Notes: generated by a model from the letters alone, not told the origin. A stretch of 64,000 nt of DNA from an uncultured Methanosarcinales archaeon (GCA_964556185.1 CAZKVI010000003.1:2089-66088); one strand, 5' to 3'. Shown: positions 1 to 58,938, counted from the stretch's first letter. Numbers and translations: made by a program.

Positions 1-683
1 AACGAGGTTTTGCAGTTAAACAAAAATATCTTGTAAAAACTTTTGTAATCGGCGGATTAATATTTGGATTAGTTCCAATTGCATTGTGTTTATTAGGGTT
101 TGTTGCAGCAAATCCAGCTGTAAGTATAGAAGTAGCAGATCCACAAATGGTTGGTCCATTAGTTATTGGACACTTTTTACCAAAAGCAGCATTATTGTTA
201 TTTGTATTTATGGCTTTTGCAGGTTTGTCCTCGACACTAGACTCTGCTTATTGTGCAATTAGTTCTTTGGGAACAATTGATTTGTATAAAAAATACATAA
301 ATCCAAATGCAAGTAGTAGAATATTATTAAAAGTTTCAAGAACTTTAATGATAGCCATGGCTGTAATTGGTACAGTAATTGCATTATTACAACCAAAACT
401 ACTTTGGGTGTTCTTAATTTACGGTGCACTAGCATCTGCTGCCTTATTTCCAACAATATTTAGTTTGTATTGGGATAGATTAGAGAAAAATGCTGCATTC
501 TTAGCAGTAGCATTGTCCTTAGTAATTGGATTACCACTTTCAATCTATGCCAATGTTGTTGAGAATGTAAACTTGATTGTATTAGCAGCAGTATTAAGCG
601 CAACTATTGGATTAGTTGTTTGTTTAGTTGGTGGATTCATGAATACAAAACGATATAAGTTTGAAGTTTACGAGAAAGAGTAA
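1..683 (+). CDS. sodium:solute symporter family transporter, C-terminal part (5' end outside window; frame open from position 3)
   Basis: Frame is open from the window edge. Multiple TM segments; conserved SSF-like stretch LSSTLDSAYCAISSLGTIDLY. Confidence 0.55.
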   Translation, partial: RGFAVKQKYLVKTFVIGGLIFGLVPIALCLLGFVAANPAVSIEVADPQMVGPLVIGHFLPKAALLLFVFMAFAGLSSTLDSAYCAISSLGTIDLYKKYINPNASSRILLKVSRTLMIAMAVIGTVIALLQPKLLWVFLIYGALASAALFPTIFSLYWDRLEKNAAFLAVALSLVIGLPLSIYANVVENVNLIVLAAVLSATIGLVVCLVGGFMNTKRYKFEVYEKE

Positions 684-2950: not shown

Positions 2951-3451
2951 CTAAAAATCCAAATCAATTTTCCTAAAATAGTCAGTTACTCTGCTCATTA
3001 TTGGTGGTAAAACATATTGTTCAATCTTCTCCCTATAAACATCTTGTAAATCACTGAATTCAACAATTCTATAATTATTCTTAATTTTCTCAACAAGAAA
3101 AATATCTCGAAGTCTTTTAATTTGTCTTCTTACATTTGAAGAAGCCACTCCAGTCAAAGGTAATTCATAATTATTCCTTGTTTCAATTACCATTGATCTT
3201 ATTTCATCAGAACTTAAGTTCTTTCTGTCTTTTTTTGCTTCTAAAATAACATAGAGTACATCAACAATTACATCTCTACTATCACCTGGCTGTAAAAGAC
3301 CCATGCTTAAGCAGAACTTTCTTACTAATTCTCTTTTATCCAAGGAATCTGGTTTTTCATATCTTCTTAATGTGAGTTCCATCAAAGGAGTATCGCGGGA
3401 GATTGTTGCCATAATTATCACCTCAATTATATGTAGCAGCATTGAGCTCAA
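2951..3451 (-). CDS. hypothetical protein (possible DNA-binding)
   Basis: 166-aa ORF, basic. Start may be an internal Met (MATISRD). Confidence 0.35.
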   Translation of the reverse strand: MSSMLLHIIEVIIMATISRDTPLMELTLRRYEKPDSLDKRELVRKFCLSMGLLQPGDSRDVIVDVLYVILEAKKDRKNLSSDEIRSMVIETRNNYELPLTGVASSNVRRQIKRLRDIFLVEKIKNNYRIVEFSDLQDVYREKIEQYVLPPIMSRVTDYFRKIDLDF

Positions 3452-3741: not shown

Positions 3742-6700
3742 CTAAACCTTCTCACAACTTATCAAAACTTCCATCTTTTTAATCTTCTCTTTAGAACAAT
3801 CTTGTAATGTGTCTGCTTCAACACCAACAAAGATCTCAACAGCCCCACATTTGTCTTTAATATCATCTTGCCATTTGATTAACATATCAACATATGATTG
3901 AGTACTCTGCAAATGCAATTTAATATTATCTTTTTTCTCCAATCCTAACTTTTTCCTAAATGCTTGAACTCTTCGCATGACTTCTCTGGAATAACCTTCT
4001 GCATCTAAGTCAGGAGTTCTTGTTTTATCTAAAAACAATTGTCCATGTCTATATTCTGCTTCAACTAAGTTCTCAGGCAGTTCTTTCTCAATAATAAAGT
4101 GCTCTTTTTTCAAACTTACTTTATGTCCATCTAAAACAACAGTATGTGCACCTTTTTCAACATCTGCCAAGATTTTCTCGTCAGCAACTTGTATTAATCT
4201 AGTAATTATTTTAGGAACTAATTCACCATATTCTTGACCAATTGTTCTATGGTTTGGTTTCATTTTTATCTTAACTTCAGTACACTTATCAACTAATTCA
4301 ATATGTTTGACATTTGTTTGTTTTTTAATAGTTTCATCTAACTTAGTAATAGATTCAATAGTATCATTATCAGTAACTACAATCCTAATTTTACCAACAG
4401 GCCATCTTACTCCTAGTTGTGCTCTTTCACGAGCAGCTAAAATACTTTGAATTGTATCTTTTGCAATAGAAAACTCTTTTTCTAAAGAGTTATCAATAAA
4501 CTTTGCATCAAATTTAGGCCAATCAAACAAATGAATACTCTCAACCTCAAGATCAAAGTACTCTTTCAAATCTTGATACATTCTCTCAGCTATAAATGGA
4601 GAAACAATTGCAAACATTTTCAAATTCTCTAAAAATGTTTCAAATATAACATTAAATACAACTTGTTTTTGTTCTTCCAACCCAAGAGCTGCTTTCTCAC
4701 GAACCAATTGAATATATGTTCTTGATAATTCCATAAATATTTCTTCAACTTTCAAAGGAACTTCATTTATCTTATAACTATCCATTAATTCTGTTATTTC
4801 TTTAATACCAGAATGTAATTTTGAAATCATATACTCTTCTTCTTGTTCTAAACAATTCTTATCAATTCCAGTGAATTTCAAACCATTATTCTTAGCTAAA
4901 TCAATTATAAACTTGTGCAGATTCCAATACACACCTAAATTCTTATATTTTAATTTACAGTCATCAAAATTATAATTAATATCAATTCCAGGATTAGCTC
5001 CACCAATCATATAATATCTTAATGTGTCTGCTCCGTATTTATCAACAACTTCTTGAGGTAAAATATAATTACCAAGAGATTTACTCATCTTACGTCCCTG
5101 TGAATCTTGTACAAAACCATGCATGTAAACATTTCTAAAAGAAGGTTTTTCCATGCTTACCATAGAAGCAACATGTAATAAATTAAACCAACCTCTAATT
5201 TGATCTTTTCCTTCTAAAATAAAATCAGGTGGAAACAAATTCTTAAAATTCTCTTCTTTATGTGGATAATCCAAACAAATCCATGAAGTACAACCAGCAT
5301 CTACCCAAACATCTAAAATATCTGGAATTCTTTTTTTAACACCACCACAATCACATTTGATTGTTACTTCATCAATCCAAGGTTTATGTAATTTCTCTAC
5401 TTTTTGTCCTGATAACTTTTCTAATTCAGCAACATCACCGACGACAATATAATTATCACACTCTTCACATCTCCATACTGGTACTGGTGTTCCCCAGAAT
5501 CTTTGTTTTGTAATAGAATTGTCTCTTAAGTTTTCTAACCATGAATTAAAAGCATTATAAGCAGCTTGAGGTACCCATTTAATTTTATTATTCTCTTCAA
5601 TTAACTTTTCTTTCATATCATCTACTTTAAAGAACCATTGTTTTGTAGTTTTATAGACAACAGCTTCATGACATCTCCAACAATGTGCATAACTATGATT
5701 AGTTTTACTTTGTGCAATTAAAGTGCCATTCTCATCCATTAGTTCAACAAATTTCTTATCATCTTTCTTAGCAACTAAACCAGAGAACTTTGAATCATCC
5801 TTTGGATATGTGCCATTTTCATCAATAAGATTAAATGGTTTAATACCTTTTCTTACACATAATTCATAATCAGAATCCCCGCAACCAGGTGCAAAATGCA
5901 CTAAACCAGTACCATCATCTAAATGTACATATTCATCTGATAATAAAACTGTATAAATCTTATCTTGTGTTTTTCTTGCTTCTTTAATTTGAGGAAATGA
6001 ATTTTCAAAAGAAGGAATATATTCTTTGCCTTCTAATTTCTTTCCTTTGAATTCTTCAACAATTTCATAATCTTTTCCTGCTTTTAATTTAATAACTTCT
6101 TCTGCAAGGTCTTTTGCAACAATCCAATGTTCATCACCAACTTTACATTTAACATATTCAAAATCAGGATGTACAACAACTGCTAGATTAAAAGGAATTG
6201 TCCATGGAGTTGTTGTCCAAATGATTAAATAATCATTTTCAGTTCCTCTTAATTTAAATCTTAAATAAATAGAATCATCAGTAATATCTTGGTATTCTAA
6301 TTCATGCTTTGCTAATGCTGTTGCACACGAAGCACACCAAGTCATTGCTCTTTCTCCTTCATACAATCTTTTATTTTCATGTGCTTTTTTAATTAACCAC
6401 CATTCTCCTTCAATAAATTCTTTTGAAATAGGTTGGTAAGCATTTTCAAAGCCCATCCATACACCTAATCTAGTAAAATCCTTATTCATTACATGCATAT
6501 TTTCTATAGATAGTTTTTTACATTCTTCAATAAACTTAGCAACACCAAACTTCTTGATTCCTTCTTTTCCATTAATTCCTAGTTTCTTTTCAACTGCATG
6601 CGCTGTAGGTAATCCATGCATATCATAGCCAGCTCTATCCCAAACATTGAAACCAGCCATTCTTTTATATCTAAGAACCATATCTTTTAGTGATTTGTTC

Positions 6701-6870
6701 CAAGCAGTACCTATATGAACCTTCCCAGAAGTATAAGGTGGTCCATCTAAGAAATAGTAGTCTTGGCCATCTTTACATTTATCTTTAGCTTTCTGGTATA
6801 TACTGTTCTTATCCCAGAACTCTAAAGTGCCTTCTTCAACTTCCTTGAAATCATAATTCCCTACTTGCAT
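3742..6870 (-). CDS. ileS: isoleucine--tRNA ligase (archaeal/eukaryotic type)
   Basis: HIGH motif (PPYTSGKVHIGTAW) and KMSKS motif (KMSKSLGNY), editing domain, 1040-1059 aa. Start assigned to MQVGNYDFKEVEE because the TATA box at about 6925-6935 would place the transcription start downstream of the first ATG at 6921. Confidence 0.9.
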   Translation of the reverse strand: MQVGNYDFKEVEEGTLEFWDKNSIYQKAKDKCKDGQDYYFLDGPPYTSGKVHIGTAWNKSLKDMVLRYKRMAGFNVWDRAGYDMHGLPTAHAVEKKLGINGKEGIKKFGVAKFIEECKKLSIENMHVMNKDFTRLGVWMGFENAYQPISKEFIEGEWWLIKKAHENKRLYEGERAMTWCASCATALAKHELEYQDITDDSIYLRFKLRGTENDYLIIWTTTPWTIPFNLAVVVHPDFEYVKCKVGDEHWIVAKDLAEEVIKLKAGKDYEIVEEFKGKKLEGKEYIPSFENSFPQIKEARKTQDKIYTVLLSDEYVHLDDGTGLVHFAPGCGDSDYELCVRKGIKPFNLIDENGTYPKDDSKFSGLVAKKDDKKFVELMDENGTLIAQSKTNHSYAHCWRCHEAVVYKTTKQWFFKVDDMKEKLIEENNKIKWVPQAAYNAFNSWLENLRDNSITKQRFWGTPVPVWRCEECDNYIVVGDVAELEKLSGQKVEKLHKPWIDEVTIKCDCGGVKKRIPDILDVWVDAGCTSWICLDYPHKEENFKNLFPPDFILEGKDQIRGWFNLLHVASMVSMEKPSFRNVYMHGFVQDSQGRKMSKSLGNYILPQEVVDKYGADTLRYYMIGGANPGIDINYNFDDCKLKYKNLGVYWNLHKFIIDLAKNNGLKFTGIDKNCLEQEEEYMISKLHSGIKEITELMDSYKINEVPLKVEEIFMELSRTYIQLVREKAALGLEEQKQVVFNVIFETFLENLKMFAIVSPFIAERMYQDLKEYFDLEVESIHLFDWPKFDAKFIDNSLEKEFSIAKDTIQSILAARERAQLGVRWPVGKIRIVVTDNDTIESITKLDETIKKQTNVKHIELVDKCTEVKIKMKPNHRTIGQEYGELVPKIITRLIQVADEKILADVEKGAHTVVLDGHKVSLKKEHFIIEKELPENLVEAEYRHGQLFLDKTRTPDLDAEGYSREVMRRVQAFRKKLGLEKKDNIKLHLQSTQSYVDMLIKWQDDIKDKCGAVEIFVGVEADTLQDCSKEKIKKMEVLISCEKV

Positions 6871-6991
6871 AAGAATTAGTGAATGAATGAGTGATTTATA
6901 AATATTATGGCATAATAACACATATTATATATGAAAAAGGCGTATTTTATTACACAAAAATTTAAATACTTCCTTACCAAGAAATTAAATC

Positions 6992-29485: not shown

Positions 29486-30367
29486 TTATCCTTGATAAAA
29501 ACCAATTAACTGTCTTTGTCTCTTAACATGTCTTAATTTTCTTAAGGCTTTTACTTCGATTTGTCTTATTCTTTCTCTTGTTAAATCAAATACTTGACCA
29601 ATCTCTTCAAGAGAATAATGACGAGGATGATCAATTCCATATCTCATTTTCATAACTTTTTCTTCTCTGGGTGTTAATTCAGCAAGTACACTTCTAACAG
29701 CCTTTGCTAAATCAGAATCCCCTACATTTTCATCAGGTCTTCGAACACTAGCTCCTTCTATAAAATCACCTATGGTTGCATCTGATTCATCACCAACTTT
29801 TTGCTCTAATGATAATGGTTCTCTTGCAAGCCTATAAATATCTTCAATTTTTTCAACTGGTTCACCTAACCAATCTGCAATTTCTTCAGAAGTTGGTTCT
29901 CTACCAAGATCAGTAACAAGTTTTCGAGCCGTTCTTCTAACTTTAGTAACCATTTCTAATTTATAAATTGGAATTCTTATTGTTCTTACTGTAGCTTCTA
30001 TTCCTCTAATAACACTTTGTCTAATCCACCAAGAAGCATATGTAGAAAATTTATATCCTCTTCTATATTCAAATTTTTCAACAGCTCTTATTAAACCTAA
30101 ATTACCTTCTTGAATTAAATCACCAAGTGGCAAGCCTCTATATTGGTATTGTCTTGCAATACTAACAACTAGTCTTAAATTGCCTTTTATTAAATCTTCT
30201 TTAGCTGTAGCTGCTTCATAAGGAGTGCCTTCTTCCATTGTTGTAGCTAATCTAACTTCATCATCTCTAGATAATAATGCTACAGCCCCCATTTGATTCA
30301 TATACTTCCTTAGAACTCTAGGATCATCTCTATATCTTGGCCCACCTTGATAATGACTAACACCCAT
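29486..30367 (-). CDS. bacterial-type RNA polymerase sigma-70 family factor (regions 1.2, 2, 3, 4)
   Basis: Region 1.2 [28 protein letters not shown]. Region 2 [58 protein letters not shown]. Region 4 [15 protein letters not shown]...[29 protein letters not shown]. Confidence 0.8.
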
Positions 30368-43302: not shown

Positions 43303-44100
43303 CTATTTTGAACCACTTTTAATCCCTCTCAAAATCTTTGTTTCTAATTTCTTATACAATTTCTTGTATTTTCTAAGAAATCTCTTTTTATCACTTATTA
43401 TGTTCTCTTTTATTTCTTTGTATGCATTCTTTCCGAACAATTTATCAATTTCCTTGTCAACTTTATCTTTACTTATCTTATTTTTATTTAAAAACAATGA
43501 AATAGAAACAACATTCCTTAACATTTCATATTTTTCATTACCATTTAACATATTAAAGTTTTCAATTAATAATTTGCTTTTTAATAAGTGCAAATCTAAT
43601 ATTTTATAATTAATTTTATGTTTTGTTTTATAGATAAATCTTTTTCTAGTAATACATTTACTTAACATTGTTTGATACAATGGATCTGTATTCAAACCAT
43701 TAATTAAGGCTTTATTATTTATTAGAATTATGTGCGGTTTAATACCTAATTTATTTTCTAATTCTTCTTCAAGATATTTCTCATCAATTTGATCATCCAT
43801 AATAACTAATACATCAATATCATTAAAATGAAACCCTTTTTCTAAAAATGAACCTGTTATGATTAGGTTATCATAAGTTTTGAATATTTTATCTATATTC
43901 TCAAATATTTGGCTGATTATATTAACTTTTACAGGCTCTAAGAAGTCAATATTATAGAAAAATGGTTTCTCAATAGGTCTTTCTAACTCTTGTAATGGTT
44001 TTATGGTTACATGACTACCTACTTCAAACCCAAGCCTTCTTTTTGGGATGTATATTTGATCCATCCTACTTCCTTTACTAATCTTACTTATTAGTTTCAT
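43303..44100 (-). CDS. AbrB/MazE-like N-terminal domain fused to a minimal nucleotidyltransferase domain
   Basis: SKGSRMDQIYIPKRR...EVGSHVTI (swapped-hairpin-like), then ITGSFLEKGFHFNDIDVLVI (GS...D.D). Confidence 0.45.
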   Translation of the reverse strand: MKLISKISKGSRMDQIYIPKRRLGFEVGSHVTIKPLQELERPIEKPFFYNIDFLEPVKVNIISQIFENIDKIFKTYDNLIITGSFLEKGFHFNDIDVLVIMDDQIDEKYLEEELENKLGIKPHIILINNKALINGLNTDPLYQTMLSKCITRKRFIYKTKHKINYKILDLHLLKSKLLIENFNMLNGNEKYEMLRNVVSISLFLNKNKISKDKVDKEIDKLFGKNAYKEIKENIISDKKRFLRKYKKLYKKLETKILRGIKSGSK

Positions 44101-44556: not shown

Positions 44557-44904
44557 CTATGAGTTAATTGTTGGAGAAGTTTTACTAATCTCTTCAATAG
44601 ATTTTAAAGCTTCTTCAATTGCTTTAATCTTTTCTTCAGAGATCTCTTCTTTTTCCACAATCCTTTGTTTCATATTATCATATTCTTGTATGGCTTTCTC
44701 AATCTCTCTTTCTTTATTCCTTTTTTCTCTTTTTATGTCTTCTTCAATATCTTTGTTCCAGTTTTCTAAATCAATCTTTAATTCTTCTATTTGTTGTTCT
44801 TTGTGTTTTAATTTTTCCTTAAATGTTGACTTGGTAGTCATGATGTCAAGTTTTCTTCCTGTAAGTCTTTCCACAATACTATATCTTGATTGACTTTCTG
44901 TCAT
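44557..44904 (-). CDS. coiled-coil protein
   Basis: E/K-rich heptads. The opposite-strand ORF is low complexity. Confidence 0.3.
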   Translation of the reverse strand: MTESQSRYSIVERLTGRKLDIMTTKSTFKEKLKHKEQQIEELKIDLENWNKDIEEDIKREKRNKEREIEKAIQEYDNMKQRIVEKEEISEEKIKAIEEALKSIEEISKTSPTINS

Positions 44905-44927
44905 GTTCTCACCTCATTTTTTTACTG

Positions 44928-45063
44928 TTAATAGCGCCAGGGACGGGAGTTTCAGTAACTTCAAAGAGTTACACCCCATCAGTTGACATTTGAACCCACG
45001 TGACATTCAGGGGACGAATGTCAACTGGATCATCAGTCCAGCGTCTTGAGCCAGACTCGACCA
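44928..45063 (-). tRNA. tRNA-like gene with Ile(GAU) anticodon arm interrupted by two insertions (possible non-canonical introns) or a pseudo-tRNA
   Basis: Minus-strand TATA about 25 bp upstream. Acceptor GCCAGGG/CCCTGGC, anticodon arm CTGGA-CUGAUGA-TCCAG, GGGTTCAAAT T-loop. A 9-bp hairpin insert and a 40-nt insert interrupt it. Confidence 0.3.
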
Positions 45064-45100
45064 CCCTGGCCTCGCCAACAGTAAAGTTTATATACTTGTT

Positions 45101-45146
45101 TGAATATACAATTAATTAAGGGGACGAATGTCAATTTGGATTATCA
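45101..45146. repeat. degenerate duplicate of the anticodon-arm/hairpin segment of the adjacent tRNA-like gene
   Basis: ggggacgaatgtcaaTttggatTatcaAtccag versus ggggacgaatgtcaaCtggatCatcaGtccag at 45002-45033. Confidence 0.6.
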
Positions 45147-45224
45147 ATCCAGTTTCTTTGGCCAACTTGGCCTTTTTTCTTTTTCAATATTCATTTTATA
45201 TATTGGCTCTATAAAGAACCATTA

Positions 45225-45725
45225 TTGGTAACCAATATAGATTACAATAAATATATAAAGTTTTCGGTTACTAATATATATTGTAATATGTATCCAGCTA
45301 AAAAAGAAAAGATAATTCATACAAAAATTATTGAATTTTTGAGAAATAATCCAAAAGGCCTTACTATGACTCAATTAGTAAGAGCCACAAAATTCTCTAG
45401 AAAGGCCATTGAAAAGCACCTAGAAGTATTAATATTGGAAAATGAGATTTATATGAAAAAATTTGGAGTTACAAAGGTTTATTACCCAAACCATAGAATT
45501 CATCACTTTGATTTTGAAAAATTGAGCTTTAACAACAGAACTATTTGGTTTGATATTTTAGAGAATGAATACGGGAAATATTTATTGATACAAAAAAAGA
45601 AAAAAGTAGAAGATAAATGGGAACATGAGCATTCAATCACAATACCATTAGAAAAAAGCAAAGAATTCTTAAAAACATTAGATAATCTTTTGAAATCAAG
45701 TAGAATGAAGAAATTGATTAAATAA
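45225..45725 (+). CDS. probable winged-helix DNA-binding protein
   Basis: KIIEFLRNNPKGLTMTQLVRATKFSRKAIEKHLEVLILENEIY. Confidence 0.4.
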   Translation: MVTNIDYNKYIKFSVTNIYCNMYPAKKEKIIHTKIIEFLRNNPKGLTMTQLVRATKFSRKAIEKHLEVLILENEIYMKKFGVTKVYYPNHRIHHFDFEKLSFNNRTIWFDILENEYGKYLLIQKKKKVEDKWEHEHSITIPLEKSKEFLKTLDNLLKSSRMKKLIK

Positions 45726-46755: not shown

Positions 46756-47571
46756 CTACTTAAAGTCATGTTCTTTGTATTTCTTAAGAAGTCCTAAAAT
46801 TTCCTTATCTTTAATATCTTTCAATTTTAAAATAATATTATTTATATCATCGCCTTCTTCACTATTGTCTTCTTTTCTAAAACTTATTGAAATTTTATCA
46901 TCTTGCCAAATAAAATATCTCAATATCTCAATATCTTTATCATTAGAGTTGTCCTCTAGCCATTTTCCAAGCTTTTTCTTTAATTTAAATAAATCTTCAT
47001 CATATTTTGGTGTTTTAGTATAAAGTGCTCTAGCGAAACCCTCTAATCCAATAATACTATTAAGTTTTTTCTTTGTTTTTCTTGAATAATATTCATAGTC
47101 TGTTCTACTAATTGGTTTTTCCTCAATAATCCTTTTAATTATTTGTTTTTCTTTTTTTGTGAAAATTTGAGATAGCCACATCTGTAGATTTCTCTCTGCA
47201 TAGATTTTTTGCTTGTCAATTATTAATTCAGATTTTTTTAATCTAGCTAATTGCAATTCAAACTCTTGTTTAAATTCATCATAATCAAGATTTCCTTTAT
47301 TACTAAACTCAGGCAATTGTTTATCAATATTATTCTCTTCAAATATTATTCTTGTAAAAGCTAATATTTGGCTAAAAATCTTTTTTTTAGGTGTTTTTTG
47401 ATATAATTCTTCAATATCTAAGTCATACTTATAAATTAGAAATGGAATAGCTTTCAAATATCTTATATTCTCAGTCTTCAAAATAGATAAAATTAGTTTT
47501 TCTTTGCTTTTATCTGCACCAAGCATCCTGTAGCCTGCATCAGTAAGCTTTTTCTCTATTGCTGTTGCCAT
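46756..47571 (-). CDS. hypothetical protein, second gene of the cassette operon
   Basis: Overlaps the upstream nucleotidyltransferase gene by 16 nt. No recognised domain. Confidence 0.4.
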   Translation of the reverse strand: MATAIEKKLTDAGYRMLGADKSKEKLILSILKTENIRYLKAIPFLIYKYDLDIEELYQKTPKKKIFSQILAFTRIIFEENNIDKQLPEFSNKGNLDYDEFKQEFELQLARLKKSELIIDKQKIYAERNLQMWLSQIFTKKEKQIIKRIIEEKPISRTDYEYYSRKTKKKLNSIIGLEGFARALYTKTPKYDEDLFKLKKKLGKWLEDNSNDKDIEILRYFIWQDDKISISFRKEDNSEEGDDINNIILKLKDIKDKEILGLLKKYKEHDFK

Positions 47572-48176
47572 TTTTTAACCTCATTTATTATTTCTTTATT
47601 TTCCATATTCCATTCTTTAAATTTTATTTCAATTAGATCTAATAATTTTTGTTTATAATTTGCAACAATAGATGTTTGCATAGTTTCTTTATATCTACTA
47701 ACAAGTTCTTTAAGATCTATTTTCTCTTTTTCAAAAATTCTTTTTACATCATCAAAGTCTCTAGAATCACCTCTTGCTAATTTACTTATTATAACATCAT
47801 ACAAAGATAATGTATAAAGTTCAATCTTACCAAATGATTGAATATGTTTGGATTTTTCTAAACAATCTGGAAGTAAATCAGTTCCTAAAATATATGAACT
47901 ATGAAAGACATCAAAAGCCAAACCTTCTTGTGTAATCCAGCGAATATGTCCTGTTTTCTCAAATCCAATCTGTTCAAATATCTTACAGATATATTTGTAT
48001 TCTTTATCTGAGTGGATATTAATATCTATGTCTAATGTTGATTGTTTGATATTAAGTATTGTTAATGCTGTTCCACCTAATGCATACATCTTAGTTTTCT
48101 TTTCAATAAATTTTGATAGGGATTCAAGTAATTCAAAGAGTTCATTAGCATTAATTTCTTTTTTATTGTGAGGCAT
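47556..48176 (-). CDS. AbiEii/DUF1814-like nucleotidyltransferase (putative toxin/abortive-infection component)
   Basis: YALGGTALTILNIKQSTLDIDINI matches the GGTAL...S.DIDf nucleotidyltransferase motif. Confidence 0.45.
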   Translation of the reverse strand: MPHNKKEINANELFELLESLSKFIEKKTKMYALGGTALTILNIKQSTLDIDINIHSDKEYKYICKIFEQIGFEKTGHIRWITQEGLAFDVFHSSYILGTDLLPDCLEKSKHIQSFGKIELYTLSLYDVIISKLARGDSRDFDDVKRIFEKEKIDLKELVSRYKETMQTSIVANYKQKLLDLIEIKFKEWNMENKEIINEVKKWQQQ

Positions 48177-48772: not shown

Positions 48773-48897
48773 TGGCAGTGGCGGGATCTGAACCCGCGGC
48801 TTCTAGATCGCCCAGATATAAAGTTTAATCATCGGCATGAGCCTCATCACTCAAATCTTATGAGTCTAGCACTCTAACCAGGCTGAGTTACACTGCC
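48773..48897 (-). tRNA. tRNA-Met/Ile2(CAU), elongator type, with 50-nt intron
   Basis: Acceptor GGCAGTG/CACTGCC, D-stem ACTC/GAGT, anticodon stem CTAGA/TCTAG, loop CU-CAU-AA, T-arm GCGGG-TTCAGAT-CCCGC. Intron contains GUGAUGA. Confidence 0.7.
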
Positions 48898-58772: not shown

Positions 58773-58938
58773 TGTGGGGGTAGCCCGTAAGAAGATTCTT
58801 TGGGTTCCCTAGAGCAAAGTCTGGTCAAATGCGCAGGACTTAAGATACACTGAAGACAGCCTTCACGGCAAAGTCTTTGTTTTGAATTAGACATCCTGTC
58901 ACTTAGTGTGTTCGGGGGTTCGAATCCCCTCCCCCACA
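58773..58938 (+). tRNA. tRNA-Leu(UAA)-like gene with two introns (about 29 nt near the D-arm and about 48 nt in the anticodon loop)
   Basis: Acceptor GTGGGGG/CCCCCAC. AGTCTGGTCAAATGCGCAGGACTTAAGA matches the archaeal Leu D-loop and anticodon arm; TCCTG is found 48 nt on; long variable arm; T-arm GGGGG-TTCGAAT-CCCCT; discriminator A. 166 nt = about 87 mature + 78 intron. Confidence 0.5.

What the first reader, a model, noticed from the sequence alone, without database searches (positions are those of the whole stretch)
44928..45146. Promoter-driven tRNA-like RNA with Ile(GAU) anticodon arm, two insertions and a duplicated fragment
On the minus strand a TATA box (rc of 45081-45100) precedes an RNA with a 7-bp acceptor pairing (GCCAGGG/CCCTGGC), a D-arm with GG, and a perfect anticodon stem-loop CTGGA-CUGAUGA-TCCAG (GAU). 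A 9-bp hairpin (TTGACATTC...GAATGTCAA) then sits where the variable loop should be, and a 40-nt insertion follows the GGGTTCAAAT T-loop. This may be a tRNA-Ile with two non-canonical introns, a pattern known in some archaeal lineages, or a tRNA-derived pseudogene. A 33-nt degenerate copy of its anticodon-arm segment lies at 45101-45146, and the loop CUGAUGA also reads as a C-box.
Basis: partly seen in the sequence, partly recalled or inferred. Interest (0 to 1): 0.5.

Follow-up and report, generated by a model that had tools for sequence, protein, structure and literature searches.

The report
Odd intron-bearing long-arm tRNA, Ile anticodon
This is a real tRNA gene with its own promoter and one intron in a Woesearchaeota (DPANN) archaeon; it has the body of a leucine/serine-type tRNA but an isoleucine anticodon, and belongs to a conserved gene family whose anticodon changes between relatives, so it may put the wrong amino acid at Ile codons.

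Summary

**What is there.** Window 44935-45070 (minus strand) encodes a 136-nt pre-tRNA. It has:
- a 7-bp acceptor stem and a D-arm;
- a perfect anticodon arm reading GAU;
- an 8-bp hairpin;
- a T-arm interrupted by a 40-nt insert.

A TATA box lies at -24 to -17, and a degenerate partial copy lies upstream at 45119-45172.

The hairpin is not an intron. It is the long variable arm of a class II (Leu/Ser-type) tRNA. Only the 40-nt insert is an intron, a bulge-helix-bulge intron at position 59/60.

**Family evidence.** I found 13 further distinct relatives beside the same conserved wHTH gene in other Woesearchaeota.
- On the 11 aligned members, 98.5% of cells pair and 20 of 31 pairs show compensatory changes.
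- All carry G73, a 59/60 intron, a promoter and an upstream partial copy.
- The anticodon varies: UAA, CAA, GAA, UAU, GAU.
- The closest marine relative has UAA.

**Context in this genome.** The window also holds a normal tRNA-Leu(UAA) with A73. TTA sits at conserved Leu positions and ATT/ATC at conserved Ile positions, so the code looks standard.

**Best reading.** This is a Leu(UAA)-derived paralog with a Ser-type discriminator and a shifted anticodon. It resembles bacterial allo-tRNAs. Which amino acid it carries, and whether it decodes at all, is not shown.

The parts
44935..45070 (-). Whole pre-tRNA gene: 136 nt, 96 nt after splicing. It is class II and has a 7/5 acceptor/T architecture.
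   Evidence: Sequence. ARAGORN calls it after intron removal. The family covariance model (CM) R1 scores it at 102 bits.
45087..45094 (-). TATA box TATATAAA, at -24 to -17 from the mature 5' end.
   Evidence: A TATA-like box sits at the same distance in all 11 members examined.
45025..45041 (-). Anticodon arm CTGGA-CTGATGA-TCCAG. The anticodon GAU is at 45034-45032. U33 and G37 are present, and so is the G30-C40 pair.
   Evidence: All five stem pairs show compensatory changes across the family.
45000..45024 (-). Long variable arm (class II): an 8-bp stem TGACATTC/GAATGTCA with a 7-nt loop. It is not an intron.
   Evidence: It has no bulges. Every member has it, with 5-8 bp, and 6 of 8 pairs show double changes.
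44949..44988 (-). 40-nt BHB intron at position 59/60 in the T-loop.
- The outer helix h is the T-stem.
- H is UUCA (54-57) paired with UGAA.
- The bulges are AA|U and AC|U.
- h' is 2 bp.
   Evidence: The register is the same in 14 of 14 members and H is fully paired in 13 of 14. Position 57 covaries: A57-U in 3 members and G57-C in 10.
44935..44935 (-). Discriminator G73. This is the Ser type; Leu tRNAs of this clade have A73.
   Evidence: All 14 members have G73. The window tRNA-Leu(UAA) and the L130 tRNA-Leu(CAA) have A73.
45119..45172 (-). Degenerate partial copy of the gene, running from about position 8 to the variable-arm loop. It also carries GAU (loop TTGATAA).
   Evidence: Pairwise alignment. 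An equivalent copy lies upstream of the gene in the relatives inspected and resembles that relative's own gene.
44557..44904 (-). Downstream 115-aa conserved coiled-coil gene. It starts 30 nt after the tRNA, with GAGGTGA as a likely ribosome-binding site. No oligo-T run and no room for a promoter lie in between, so it is probably co-transcribed.
45288..45725 (+). Divergent wHTH regulator gene. It is the conserved neighbour that anchors the family's locus.
58774..58938 (+). Context: a normal-looking tRNA-Leu(UAA) of the same genome. It has A73 and two introns. The detectors miss it.
   Evidence: A weak R1 hit, the sequence, and brute-force intron removal followed by ARAGORN.

Best explanation
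**Shown.**
- The locus is an intact archaeal class II tRNA gene. It has its own TATA promoter and one bulge-helix-bulge intron at position 59/60.
- It belongs to a structurally conserved family in Woesearchaeota. The body of that family (D-arm, anticodon stem, T-arm) resembles tRNA-Leu(UAA). The acceptor end resembles tRNA-Ser (C2-G71, G73).
- The anticodon differs between relatives: UAA, CAA, GAA, UAU, GAU.

**Inferred mechanism.**
- The gene is transcribed from the TATA box, probably together with the downstream ORF.
- The ends are cut by RNase P and RNase Z.
- The intron is removed by a broad-specificity splicing endonuclease.
- CCA is added.

SerRS and LeuRS both ignore the anticodon. The mature tRNA would therefore be charged whatever its anticodon. 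By published archaeal rules that points to Ser, because it has G73, G1-C72, G30-C40 and a long arm. Leu is possible if this lineage's LeuRS tolerates G73. The tRNA would then read AUC/AUU. In that case it is a natural missense (anticodon-shifted) tRNA, an archaeal counterpart of bacterial allo-tRNAs.

The UAA to GAU change is recent. The closest marine relative still has UAA, and it has a homologous intron.
For: **Structure**
- ARAGORN calls a 97-nt tRNA after the intron is removed.
- The BHB register was worked out and holds across the family.

**Family conservation**
- On the 11 aligned members, 98.5% of cells pair.
- 20 of 31 pairs show double changes.
- Slid controls give 40-49% pairing, and no shuffle in 500 reaches the observed value.
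- Loops stay canonical, Y32-U33-NNN-R37.

**Expression signals**
- A conserved TATA box sits at a fixed distance in all 11 members examined.
- No oligo-T terminator follows the family genes, unlike four of the five other tRNA genes in the window.
- In most members an ORF starts 6-30 nt downstream.

**Population**
- The allele is identical, with no differences, in all 10 other contigs fetched; seven of them cover the whole gene and three only part of it.

**Paralogy and identity**
- The genome has its own tRNA-Leu(UAA) with A73.
- L130 has a tRNA-Leu(CAA) with A73.
- Segment comparison places the body nearer Leu and the acceptor end nearer Ser.
- Identity rules are taken from the literature. 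Archaeal Leu needs A73 plus the variable arm. G73 and G30-C40 are Ser determinants. A73G converts a tRNA-Leu into a Ser acceptor (PMC9976931).
- Precedent: long-arm, G73 allo-tRNAs with Leu or UAU anticodons insert Ser at Leu codons (PMC5389517).
Against: - There are no expression, splicing or aminoacylation data.
- A Ser- or Leu-charged GAU tRNA should be harmful, because AUY is Ile in this genome.
- If the tRNA were Ser-charged, a single A35G change would give the harmless Ser anticodon UGA. No member shows it, and A35 is kept in 13 of 14 members.
- G37 next to a GAU anticodon is atypical.
- The predicted MFE fold of the pre-tRNA is an alternative structure, not the cloverleaf. It scores -58.2 kcal/mol against -45.6.
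- The window's T-stem has two G·U pairs.
- The alignment used for the covariation counts was fitted to the model.
- The family is absent from many close relatives at this locus, so it is dispensable.
Confidence: 0.45

Rival explanations
1. It is a tRNA-shaped processing and expression module. The gene supplies a promoter and RNase P/Z cleavage signals for the downstream mRNA, as in tRNA punctuation or archaeal t-elements. Decoding is irrelevant, so the anticodon drifts freely.
For: - No terminator follows the tRNA.
- A downstream ORF starts 6-30 nt after the tRNA 3' end in most members, including the window, with no room for a separate promoter.
- In relatives that lack the tRNA, the 70-aa ORF sits directly behind the shared divergent promoter.
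- The anticodon is variable.
Against: - RNase P and RNase Z need mainly the acceptor/T minihelix.
- Yet the D-arm, the anticodon stem (5 of 5 pairs with compensatory changes), the 7-nt loop with U33 and R37, and the long arm are all conserved.
- A well-folded tRNA with G73 would be charged anyway.
Confidence: 0.2
2. It is a redundant paralog on its way to becoming a pseudogene. A spare tRNA-Leu(UAA)-like copy sits at a recombination-prone locus. Its anticodon mutated recently, and it is neutral, poorly expressed or poorly charged.
For: - The genome keeps a normal tRNA-Leu(UAA) with A73.
- The family is patchy among close relatives.
- The locus is littered with partial copies. One gene is broken: in L154 the 5' part of the partial copy is fused to the 3' part of the real gene.
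- The nearest relative still has UAA.
- The window copy has the longest intron and two G·U pairs in the T-stem.
Against: - All stems are intact here.
- The allele is identical in all 10 other contigs fetched.
- Anticodon-shifted members (GAU, GAA, CAA) have diverged further while keeping every helix through compensatory changes.
- One genome keeps two shifted members in tandem, GAA and CAA.
Confidence: 0.2
3. The tRNA gene is, or was, the target or cargo of site-specific recombination by an integrative element. The partial copies are att-site remnants, and exchange of the D-arm to variable-arm segment explains both the anticodon swaps and the likeness between each gene and its partial copy. 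This is compatible with the other readings.
For: - A partial copy with consistent limits (about position 8 to the variable arm) lies upstream of the gene in the relatives inspected, and it matches that relative's own gene, including the anticodon.
- L118 has two tandem copies.
- L041 has a downstream T-arm fragment.
- L036 and L125 have a remnant of a second tRNA type downstream.
- Variable cargo, including nucleotidyltransferase genes, sits next to the locus.
Against: - No integrase was found among the 10 neighbouring ORFs scanned.
- Only about 50 nt separate the two copies.
- No family member was found in IMG/VR viral contigs.
Confidence: 0.1
4. One reading: it is a genuine tRNA-Ile(GAU) with two non-canonical introns.
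For: - The anticodon is GAU, with a perfect stem and U33.
- ARAGORN labels the spliced form 'Ile' from the anticodon alone.
Against: - The 'second intron' has no BHB motif and is a conserved long variable arm.
- It has G73 and G37, where Ile tRNAs have A73 and A37.
- Homologues at the same locus carry UAA, CAA, GAA or UAU.
Confidence: 0.03
5. It is a C/D-box or K-turn small RNA. CUGAUGA would be the C box and CUGA the D box.
For: The motifs CUGAUGA (anticodon loop), CUGAUGG and CUGA (intron) are present.
Against: - The motifs are not conserved in any homologue.
- No terminal stem can form.
- The spacing is wrong.
- The intron's UGAA is used by the BHB H helix.
- Rfam finds no C/D-box family match in this region.
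Confidence: 0.01

Closest known systems
Archaeal tRNA genes with non-canonical BHB introns (D-loop, T-loop, acceptor stem), processed by (alpha-beta)2 or epsilon2 splicing endonucleases
   Same: - It has the h-B-H-B-h' geometry, with 3-nt bulges around a 4-bp helix and a weak h' (the relaxed type).
- The intron is in the T-loop.
- Several tRNAs in the same genome or clade are disrupted in the same way or carry several introns (PMC6379350, PMC3241643).
   Different: - The 5' half of the intron is complementary to the 5' strand of the variable arm.
- Its 3' half can replace the 5' strand of the T-stem.
- Both relations covary. I know of no description of this for BHB introns.
Bacterial allo-tRNAs (Mukai et al. 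2017, PMC5389517)
   Same: - Both have a long variable arm plus G73, which predicts Ser identity, combined with non-Ser anticodons. Leu anticodons and UAU are prominent among allo-tRNAs.
- Both have a patchy distribution and occur near toxin-antitoxin-like genes.
- For both, the open question is whether they act as missense suppressors or as non-translational RNAs.
   Different: - Allo-tRNAs have an 8/4 or 9/3 acceptor/T-stem architecture. This family has the canonical 7/5.
- This family is archaeal and carries an intron.
- Its body is Leu(UAA)-like rather than Sec/Ser-like.
Anticodon-shifted class II tRNAs, such as Candida tRNA-Ser(CAG) and human tRNA-Ser or tRNA-Leu anticodon variants; also the A73G switch of tRNA-Leu to Ser acceptance
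   Same: - The features are a Leu/Ser hybrid.
- Aminoacylation is independent of the anticodon.
- A single-base change is enough to create a mistranslating tRNA (PMC9976931). The named examples come from my own knowledge.
   Different: - Here a whole gene family samples five anticodons of the NAN column in closely related genomes.
- The standard code is in use for AUY and UUA.
tRNA-Ile(GAU)
   Same: The anticodon is GAU with U33.
   Different: This gene has a class II long arm, G73 and G37, and its ancestry is Leu-like.

Membership tests
Archaeal BHB-intron-containing tRNA gene | A cloverleaf with 7-bp acceptor, D, anticodon and 5-bp T stems once the intron is removed | tested here: met
   ARAGORN calls the spliced sequence. 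All 31 modelled pairs form. The family covaries.
Archaeal BHB-intron-containing tRNA gene | Splice sites lie in two 3-nt bulges separated by a 4-bp helix | tested here: met
   H is UUCA/UGAA with bulges AA|U and AC|U. The register is the same in 14 of 14 members and H is fully paired in 13 of 14. Position 57 covaries.
Archaeal BHB-intron-containing tRNA gene | The intron is actually excised and a mature tRNA is made | not testable with these tools
   No RNA data are available.
tRNA-Ile(GAU) | Anticodon GAU | tested here: met
   It lies at 45034-45032.
tRNA-Ile(GAU) | A class I body (4-5 nt variable loop), A73 and A37 | tested here: not met
   The variable region is 25 nt with an 8-bp stem, and the gene has G73 and G37.
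tRNA-Ser (archaeal) | Long variable arm, G73, G1-C72 and G30-C40 (PMC9976931) | tested here: met
   All four features are present in the window gene.
tRNA-Ser (archaeal) | A serine anticodon (NGA or GCU) | tested here: not met
   The anticodon is GAU here. No member has a Ser anticodon.
tRNA-Ser (archaeal) | Serylation by SerRS | not testable with these tools
   This needs an aminoacylation assay.
tRNA-Leu (archaeal) | Discriminator A73 | tested here: not met
   All 14 members have G73. Normal Leu tRNAs of the clade have A73.
tRNA-Leu (archaeal) | Class II body with a Leu-type D-arm and anticodon arm, plus a Leu anticodon | tested here: inconclusive
   The D-arm, anticodon stem and T-arm are closest to the window tRNA-Leu(UAA). 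Six of 14 members have UAA or CAA, but the window has GAU.
allo-tRNA (bacterial) | A 12-bp acceptor branch split 8/4 or 9/3 | tested here: not met
   The split here is 7/5.
allo-tRNA (bacterial) | Long arm plus G73 (or U73), combined with a non-Ser anticodon | tested here: met
C/D box sRNA | C and D boxes brought together by a terminal stem (K-turn) and conserved in homologues | tested here: not met
   There is no terminal stem. The motifs are absent from all homologues.
tRNA pseudogene | Disrupted stems, or loss of promoter or processing signals | tested here: not met
   Stems, TATA box and BHB are all intact. The upstream copy at 45119-45172 does meet this definition.

The most novel reading that the evidence does not exclude
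Woesearchaeota maintain, under selection, a dedicated family of hybrid class II tRNAs. These have a Leu-like body and a Ser-type acceptor end with G73. Their anticodon moves within the NAN column (Leu, Phe and Ile codons). On this reading they are natural, possibly regulated, missense-decoding tRNAs in Archaea. Their pre-tRNAs would switch between two covarying folds, because the T-loop intron mimics the 3' strand of the variable arm and the 5' strand of the T-stem.
Probability: 0.3. Interest if true: 0.8.

Novelty: new variant of a known kind. Interest (0 to 1): 0.6.

Why it matters
**If these tRNAs are charged and used.** They would be the first archaeal example I know of where natural missense tRNAs are kept by selection. 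That gives a concrete system for asking how small-genome symbionts tolerate or exploit codon ambiguity. It also shows how tRNA identity can move between Leu, Ser and other codon boxes.

**Practical points that hold either way.**
- Standard detectors (ARAGORN and Rfam) miss this gene.
- They also miss a normal tRNA-Leu(UAA) in the same window.
- T-loop 59/60 introns recur in this clade. tRNAs reported as 'missing' in Nanobdellota genomes, such as Val and Trp (bioRxiv 10.64898/2026.05.13.725050), may therefore be detection failures.
- The intron looks like a tandem copy of the adjacent tRNA segment. That suggests a simple route by which BHB introns could arise.

Tried and rejected
- **Rfam and ARAGORN on the raw window.** Neither reports the gene. 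The RAGATH-34 match (18.5 bits against a 60.7-bit cut-off), and the MIR5643 and GcvB matches, are noise.
- **Viral-contig scan with the anticodon-arm pattern.** All 25 hits are coding sequence, apparently a WIDDP-type peptide motif. None is a tRNA.
- **Viral-contig scan with a T-loop plus intron pattern.** It returned 0 hits.
- **Hairpin as a second intron.** Rejected: it has no bulges and is conserved as a variable arm.
- **C/D box or K-turn.** Rejected: see the rival explanations.
- **Codon reassignment.** Rejected. TTA falls at conserved Leu columns 211 times out of 221. ATT and ATC fall mostly at conserved Ile columns.
- **Extra SerRS or LeuRS paralog next to the gene.** None is present. 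The window holds only an IleRS about 38 kb away.
- **Integrase nearby.** None was found among the ORFs scanned.
- **blastn of the tRNA against the 80 genome loci.** It did not pick up the homologues, apart from a short match at the 3' end of the L037 gene. ARAGORN found the L037 ortholog, and inspecting the intergenic regions next to the wHTH gene, then a covariance model (CM), found the rest.
- **Cloverleaf plus BHB as the minimum-energy fold.** It is not.

Full report
**1. The observation**

I read the minus strand of 44700-45400.
- GCCAGGG (45070-45064) pairs with CCCTGGC (44942-44936). A G follows as the discriminator.
- There is a D-arm with GG.
- The anticodon arm is CTGGA-CTGATGA-TCCAG, with anticodon GAU at 45034-45032.
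- The hairpin TGACATTC-GTCCCCT-GAATGTCA has 8 bp.
- GTGGG-TTCAAAT is followed by 40 extra bases and then CCCGT.
- TATATAAA lies at 45094-45087, which is -24 to -17 from the mature 5' end.

ARAGORN reports only a tRNA-Ala in the whole window. Rfam lists four tRNAs at gathering score, none of them here. In permissive mode Rfam gives a partial 18.7-bit tRNA match against a 29-bit cut-off. It adds no further tRNA in the window.

When the 40 bases are deleted, ARAGORN calls a 97-nt tRNA with a long variable arm and anticodon GAT. The strand folds far better than shuffles, with z = -5.25.

The 'duplicated fragment' is real but mis-placed. It spans 45119-45172 and matches the gene from the D-arm to the variable-arm loop. 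Its loop TTGATAA also reads GAU.

**2. Organism and locus**

The window has about 30% G+C. Its other tRNAs carry archaeal introns.

The two flanking proteins are conserved in Woesearchaeota and Pacearchaeota at 60-84% identity. They are a 115-aa coiled-coil protein downstream and a 145-aa wHTH protein divergently upstream.

The downstream protein occurs on 12 contigs, and I fetched 10 of them from JGI and ENA metagenome assemblies. Seven cover the whole tRNA region and are base-for-base identical to the window. The other three cover only part of it and show no differences. The GAU allele is therefore not an assembly error. It looks fixed in that population.

**3. Homologues**

I fetched 80 genome loci around the 115-aa gene and 80 metagenome loci around the wHTH gene. 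A few more came from exact protein look-ups.

ARAGORN flagged a 92-nt 'tRNA-Ile(gat)' in L037. I then inspected the intergenic regions next to the wHTH gene. I also built a covariance model (CM), R1, from six members. Together these gave 14 distinct family members, counting the window.

Every member has:
- a 7-bp acceptor stem and a D-arm;
- a 5-bp anticodon stem with a 7-nt loop of the form Y32-U33-NNN-R37;
- a 5-8 bp variable arm;
- a 5-bp T-stem and G73;
- a 15-40 nt insert at the same T-loop position.

Where I inspected the flanks, a TATA-like box sits at the same distance upstream (all 11 members). A degenerate partial copy lies further upstream.

On the CM-made alignment of 11 members:
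- 98.5% of cells form standard pairs;
- 20 of 31 pairs have changes on both sides;
- no shuffle out of 500 reaches the observed values;
- sliding the partners by 1-3 columns drops pairing to 40-49%.

One caveat applies. The alignment was fitted to the model, so these counts lean towards it. The sequences are nonetheless very different in the anticodon stem (CUGGA/UCCAG, CCUGA/UUAGG, ACCGC/GCGGU, AUAGU/ACUAU). They also differ in the variable arm.

**4. One intron, not two**

The hairpin has no bulges and is kept as a helix in all members. It is the long variable arm of a class II tRNA.

The 40-nt insert fits the bulge-helix-bulge rule.
- The T-stem is the outer helix.
- UUCA (positions 54-57) pairs with UGAA at the end of the insert.
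- The bulges are AA|U and AC|U.
- Cutting there removes 44988-44949 and leaves the T-loop UUCAAAU.

The same register holds in all 14 members, and H is fully paired in 13 of them. Position 57 covaries with its intron partner: A-U in three members, G-C in ten, and an A·G mismatch in L120. The inner helix is weak, which makes this a relaxed BHB.

Introns in T-loops and relaxed BHB motifs are established in Archaea. They are cut by (alpha-beta)2 or epsilon2 endonucleases (PMC6379350, PMC3241643).

Other tRNAs of this clade carry 59/60 introns too. Examples are the L130 tRNA-Leu(CAA) and a class I tRNA downstream of the 70-aa ORF in L140 and L199.

**5. What kind of tRNA it is**

The anticodon is not conserved.

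| Anticodon | Members |
|---|---|
| UAA | L120, L133, L156, L199 |
| UAU | L143 |
| GAU | window, L037 |
| GAA | L118, L197a, L125, L036 |
| CAA | L145, L197b |
| CUC (doubtful; poor anticodon stem) | L041 |

- **UAA looks ancestral.** The loop CUUAAGA and the stem CUGGA/UCCAG are shared by the UAA, UAU and window GAU members. The partial copy in L037 still reads CUUAA. L199, a Tara Oceans contig and the closest marine relative found, has UAA. Its 24-nt intron (UGCUAACUGACGGGUUGCUGAA) is homologous to the window's 40-nt intron.
- **The genome has a normal Leu tRNA.** The window holds a class II tRNA-Leu(UAA) with A73 and two introns at 58774-58938. The detectors miss it. L130 has a tRNA-Leu(CAA) with A73.
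- **Body nearer Leu, acceptor end nearer Ser.** Segment by segment, the family's D-arm, anticodon stem and T-arm are closer to that tRNA-Leu. The acceptor stem plus discriminator is a little closer to the clade's Ser tRNAs, which share C2-G71 and G73.
- **Published identity rules.** Archaeal Leu identity needs A73 and the variable arm. G73, with G30-C40 and G1-C72, defines Ser identity. A73G alone turns a tRNA-Leu into a Ser acceptor (PMC9976931). The window gene has G73, G1-C72, G30-C40 and a long arm.
- **The code is standard.** Across the 115-aa gene family, TTA sits at conserved Leu columns 211 times out of 221. ATT and ATC fall mostly at conserved Ile columns. In the window gene, TTA is at conserved Leu three times, and ATT/ATC are at conserved Ile five times out of six.

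**6. How it most likely works**

- *Shown:* an intact class II tRNA gene with a conserved promoter and a conserved, covarying BHB intron. It belongs to a family that keeps the whole L-shape while its anticodon changes.
- *Inferred:* it is transcribed, trimmed, spliced and given CCA. SerRS and LeuRS ignore the anticodon, so it is charged whatever the anticodon is. Canonical rules point to Ser, with Leu as the alternative. It then reads AUY.

This makes it an archaeal analogue of bacterial allo-tRNAs. Those are long-arm, G73 tRNAs with Leu or UAU anticodons. Some of them insert Ser at Leu codons in E. coli, while the UAU variants tested showed no suppressor activity. They often lie near toxin-antitoxin genes (PMC5389517). 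Nucleotidyltransferase genes, including DUF6036 and Pol-beta types, lie within 1-3 kb here.

Two points argue for Leu rather than Ser. A35 is kept in 13 of 14 members, which confines the family to Leu, Phe and Ile codons. And no member has taken the one-step route to the harmless Ser anticodon UGA. The sample is too small to make this more than suggestive.

I put about 0.9 on 'real class II tRNA gene with one 59/60 intron'. I put about 0.45 on the missense-tRNA mechanism.

**7. Rival readings**

- **Processing module.** The family genes lack the oligo-T runs that follow four of the five other tRNA genes in the window. In most members an ORF starts 6-30 nt downstream. The tRNA may therefore serve as promoter and 5'-processing signal for that mRNA. 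That would not explain the conserved anticodon arm and long arm.
- **Drifting spare copy.** The locus is patchy among relatives and one member, L154, is broken. But shifted members kept evolving compensatory changes, and one genome keeps GAA and CAA members side by side.
- **Recombination target.** The partial copies suggest repeated recombination, but I found no recombinase.

**8. Unexplained features**

- **The partial copies track their own genes.** In each relative inspected, the upstream partial copy resembles that relative's own gene, anticodon included. L118 has two such copies and L041 has a downstream T-arm fragment. This points to gene conversion or recurrent recombination.
- **The intron mimics neighbouring strands.** Together with A58 and A59, the 5' part of the intron is complementary to the 5' strand of the variable arm. 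This occurs in several independent sequence states:
  - window GUUGACAUU / AAUGUCAAC;
  - L037 GGUAAACA / UGUUUACC;
  - L118 GUAAGCGUU / AACGCUUAC;
  - L199 shows another state by inspection of its sequence.

  In the matrix, a member's own intron ranks 1st to 4th of 11 as the partner of its arm in seven of the eight type A members tested. The exception is L041. Members that share an arm type cross-match strongly. The 3' part of the intron can also replace the 5' strand of the T-stem: ACGG or ACGAG follows CCCGU or CUCGU. So the intron looks like a degenerate tandem copy of the segment just before it. The predicted minimum-energy fold of the precursor uses these alternative helices: -58.2 kcal/mol, against -45.6 for cloverleaf plus BHB. 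I cannot tell whether this reflects how the intron arose or a working switch.

**9. Verdict**

The feature is real and is more interesting than a pseudogene. It is not a tRNA-Ile with two introns. It is a new archaeal variant of two known themes: non-canonical BHB introns, and anticodon-shifted class II tRNAs. Its aminoacylation and use remain to be tested.

Noticed in passing
window 58774-58938 (+): A class II tRNA-Leu(UAA) with A73 and two introns. One intron of about 29-33 nt lies just after the acceptor 5' strand. The other, about 48 nt, is at 37/38. ARAGORN and Rfam both miss it.
   Followed up: yes
window 29486-30367 (-): A 293-aa ORF matches all the main bacterial sigma-70 regions (r1_2, r2, r3, r4). 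It sits in an otherwise archaeal context, next to an intron-containing tRNA-Lys. A relative's locus (L197/L198) also encodes a sigma-70-like protein near the wHTH gene.
   Followed up: no
window 48773-48897 (-): The 52-nt intron of the tRNA(CAU) contains GUGAUGA and CGAUGA motifs. It may encode a C/D-box guide, like the tRNA-Trp intron of haloarchaea.
   Followed up: no
L140:1120-1216 (-), L199:~524-618 (-), L126, L152: A class I tRNA (anticodon apparently GAC or CAC, Val-like) with a 59/60 T-loop intron follows the 70-aa ORF in many relatives. Standard tools could miss it. That may explain the 'missing tRNA-Val' reported for Nanobdellota genomes (bioRxiv 10.64898/2026.05.13.725050).
   Followed up: partly
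L042:2233-2345 and 3009-3133 (+): In a 44% G+C Woesearchaeon, two class II tRNAs flank the 115-aa gene. Both have anticodon UAA, canonical 37/38 introns, G73 and Ser-like D-arms. This may be a second, unrelated case of a Ser-type tRNA with a Leu anticodon.
   Followed up: no
window 45219-45240 and equivalents in all relatives: A conserved motif TTATATTGGTTACCAATA lies between the wHTH gene and the tRNA locus. It combines a TATA-like box with the palindrome TGGTTACCA. It is probably the shared divergent promoter and operator of the wHTH regulator.
   Followed up: no
L197:581-1004 (-): Two family members lie in tandem in one genome, one with GAA and one with CAA. Each has its own promoter and its own upstream partial copy.
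   Followed up: partly
window 3742-6921 (-): A class I aminoacyl-tRNA synthetase with a C-terminal DUF5915 domain, probably IleRS. aEF2 and aEF1A are encoded in the same window.
   Followed up: no
window 46756-48176 (-) and 43303-44100 (-): A DUF6036 nucleotidyltransferase gene overlaps a 271-aa partner ORF, and a second Pol-beta-type nucleotidyltransferase gene lies nearby. These look like toxin-antitoxin modules in the low-G+C stretch around the tRNA.
   Followed up: no
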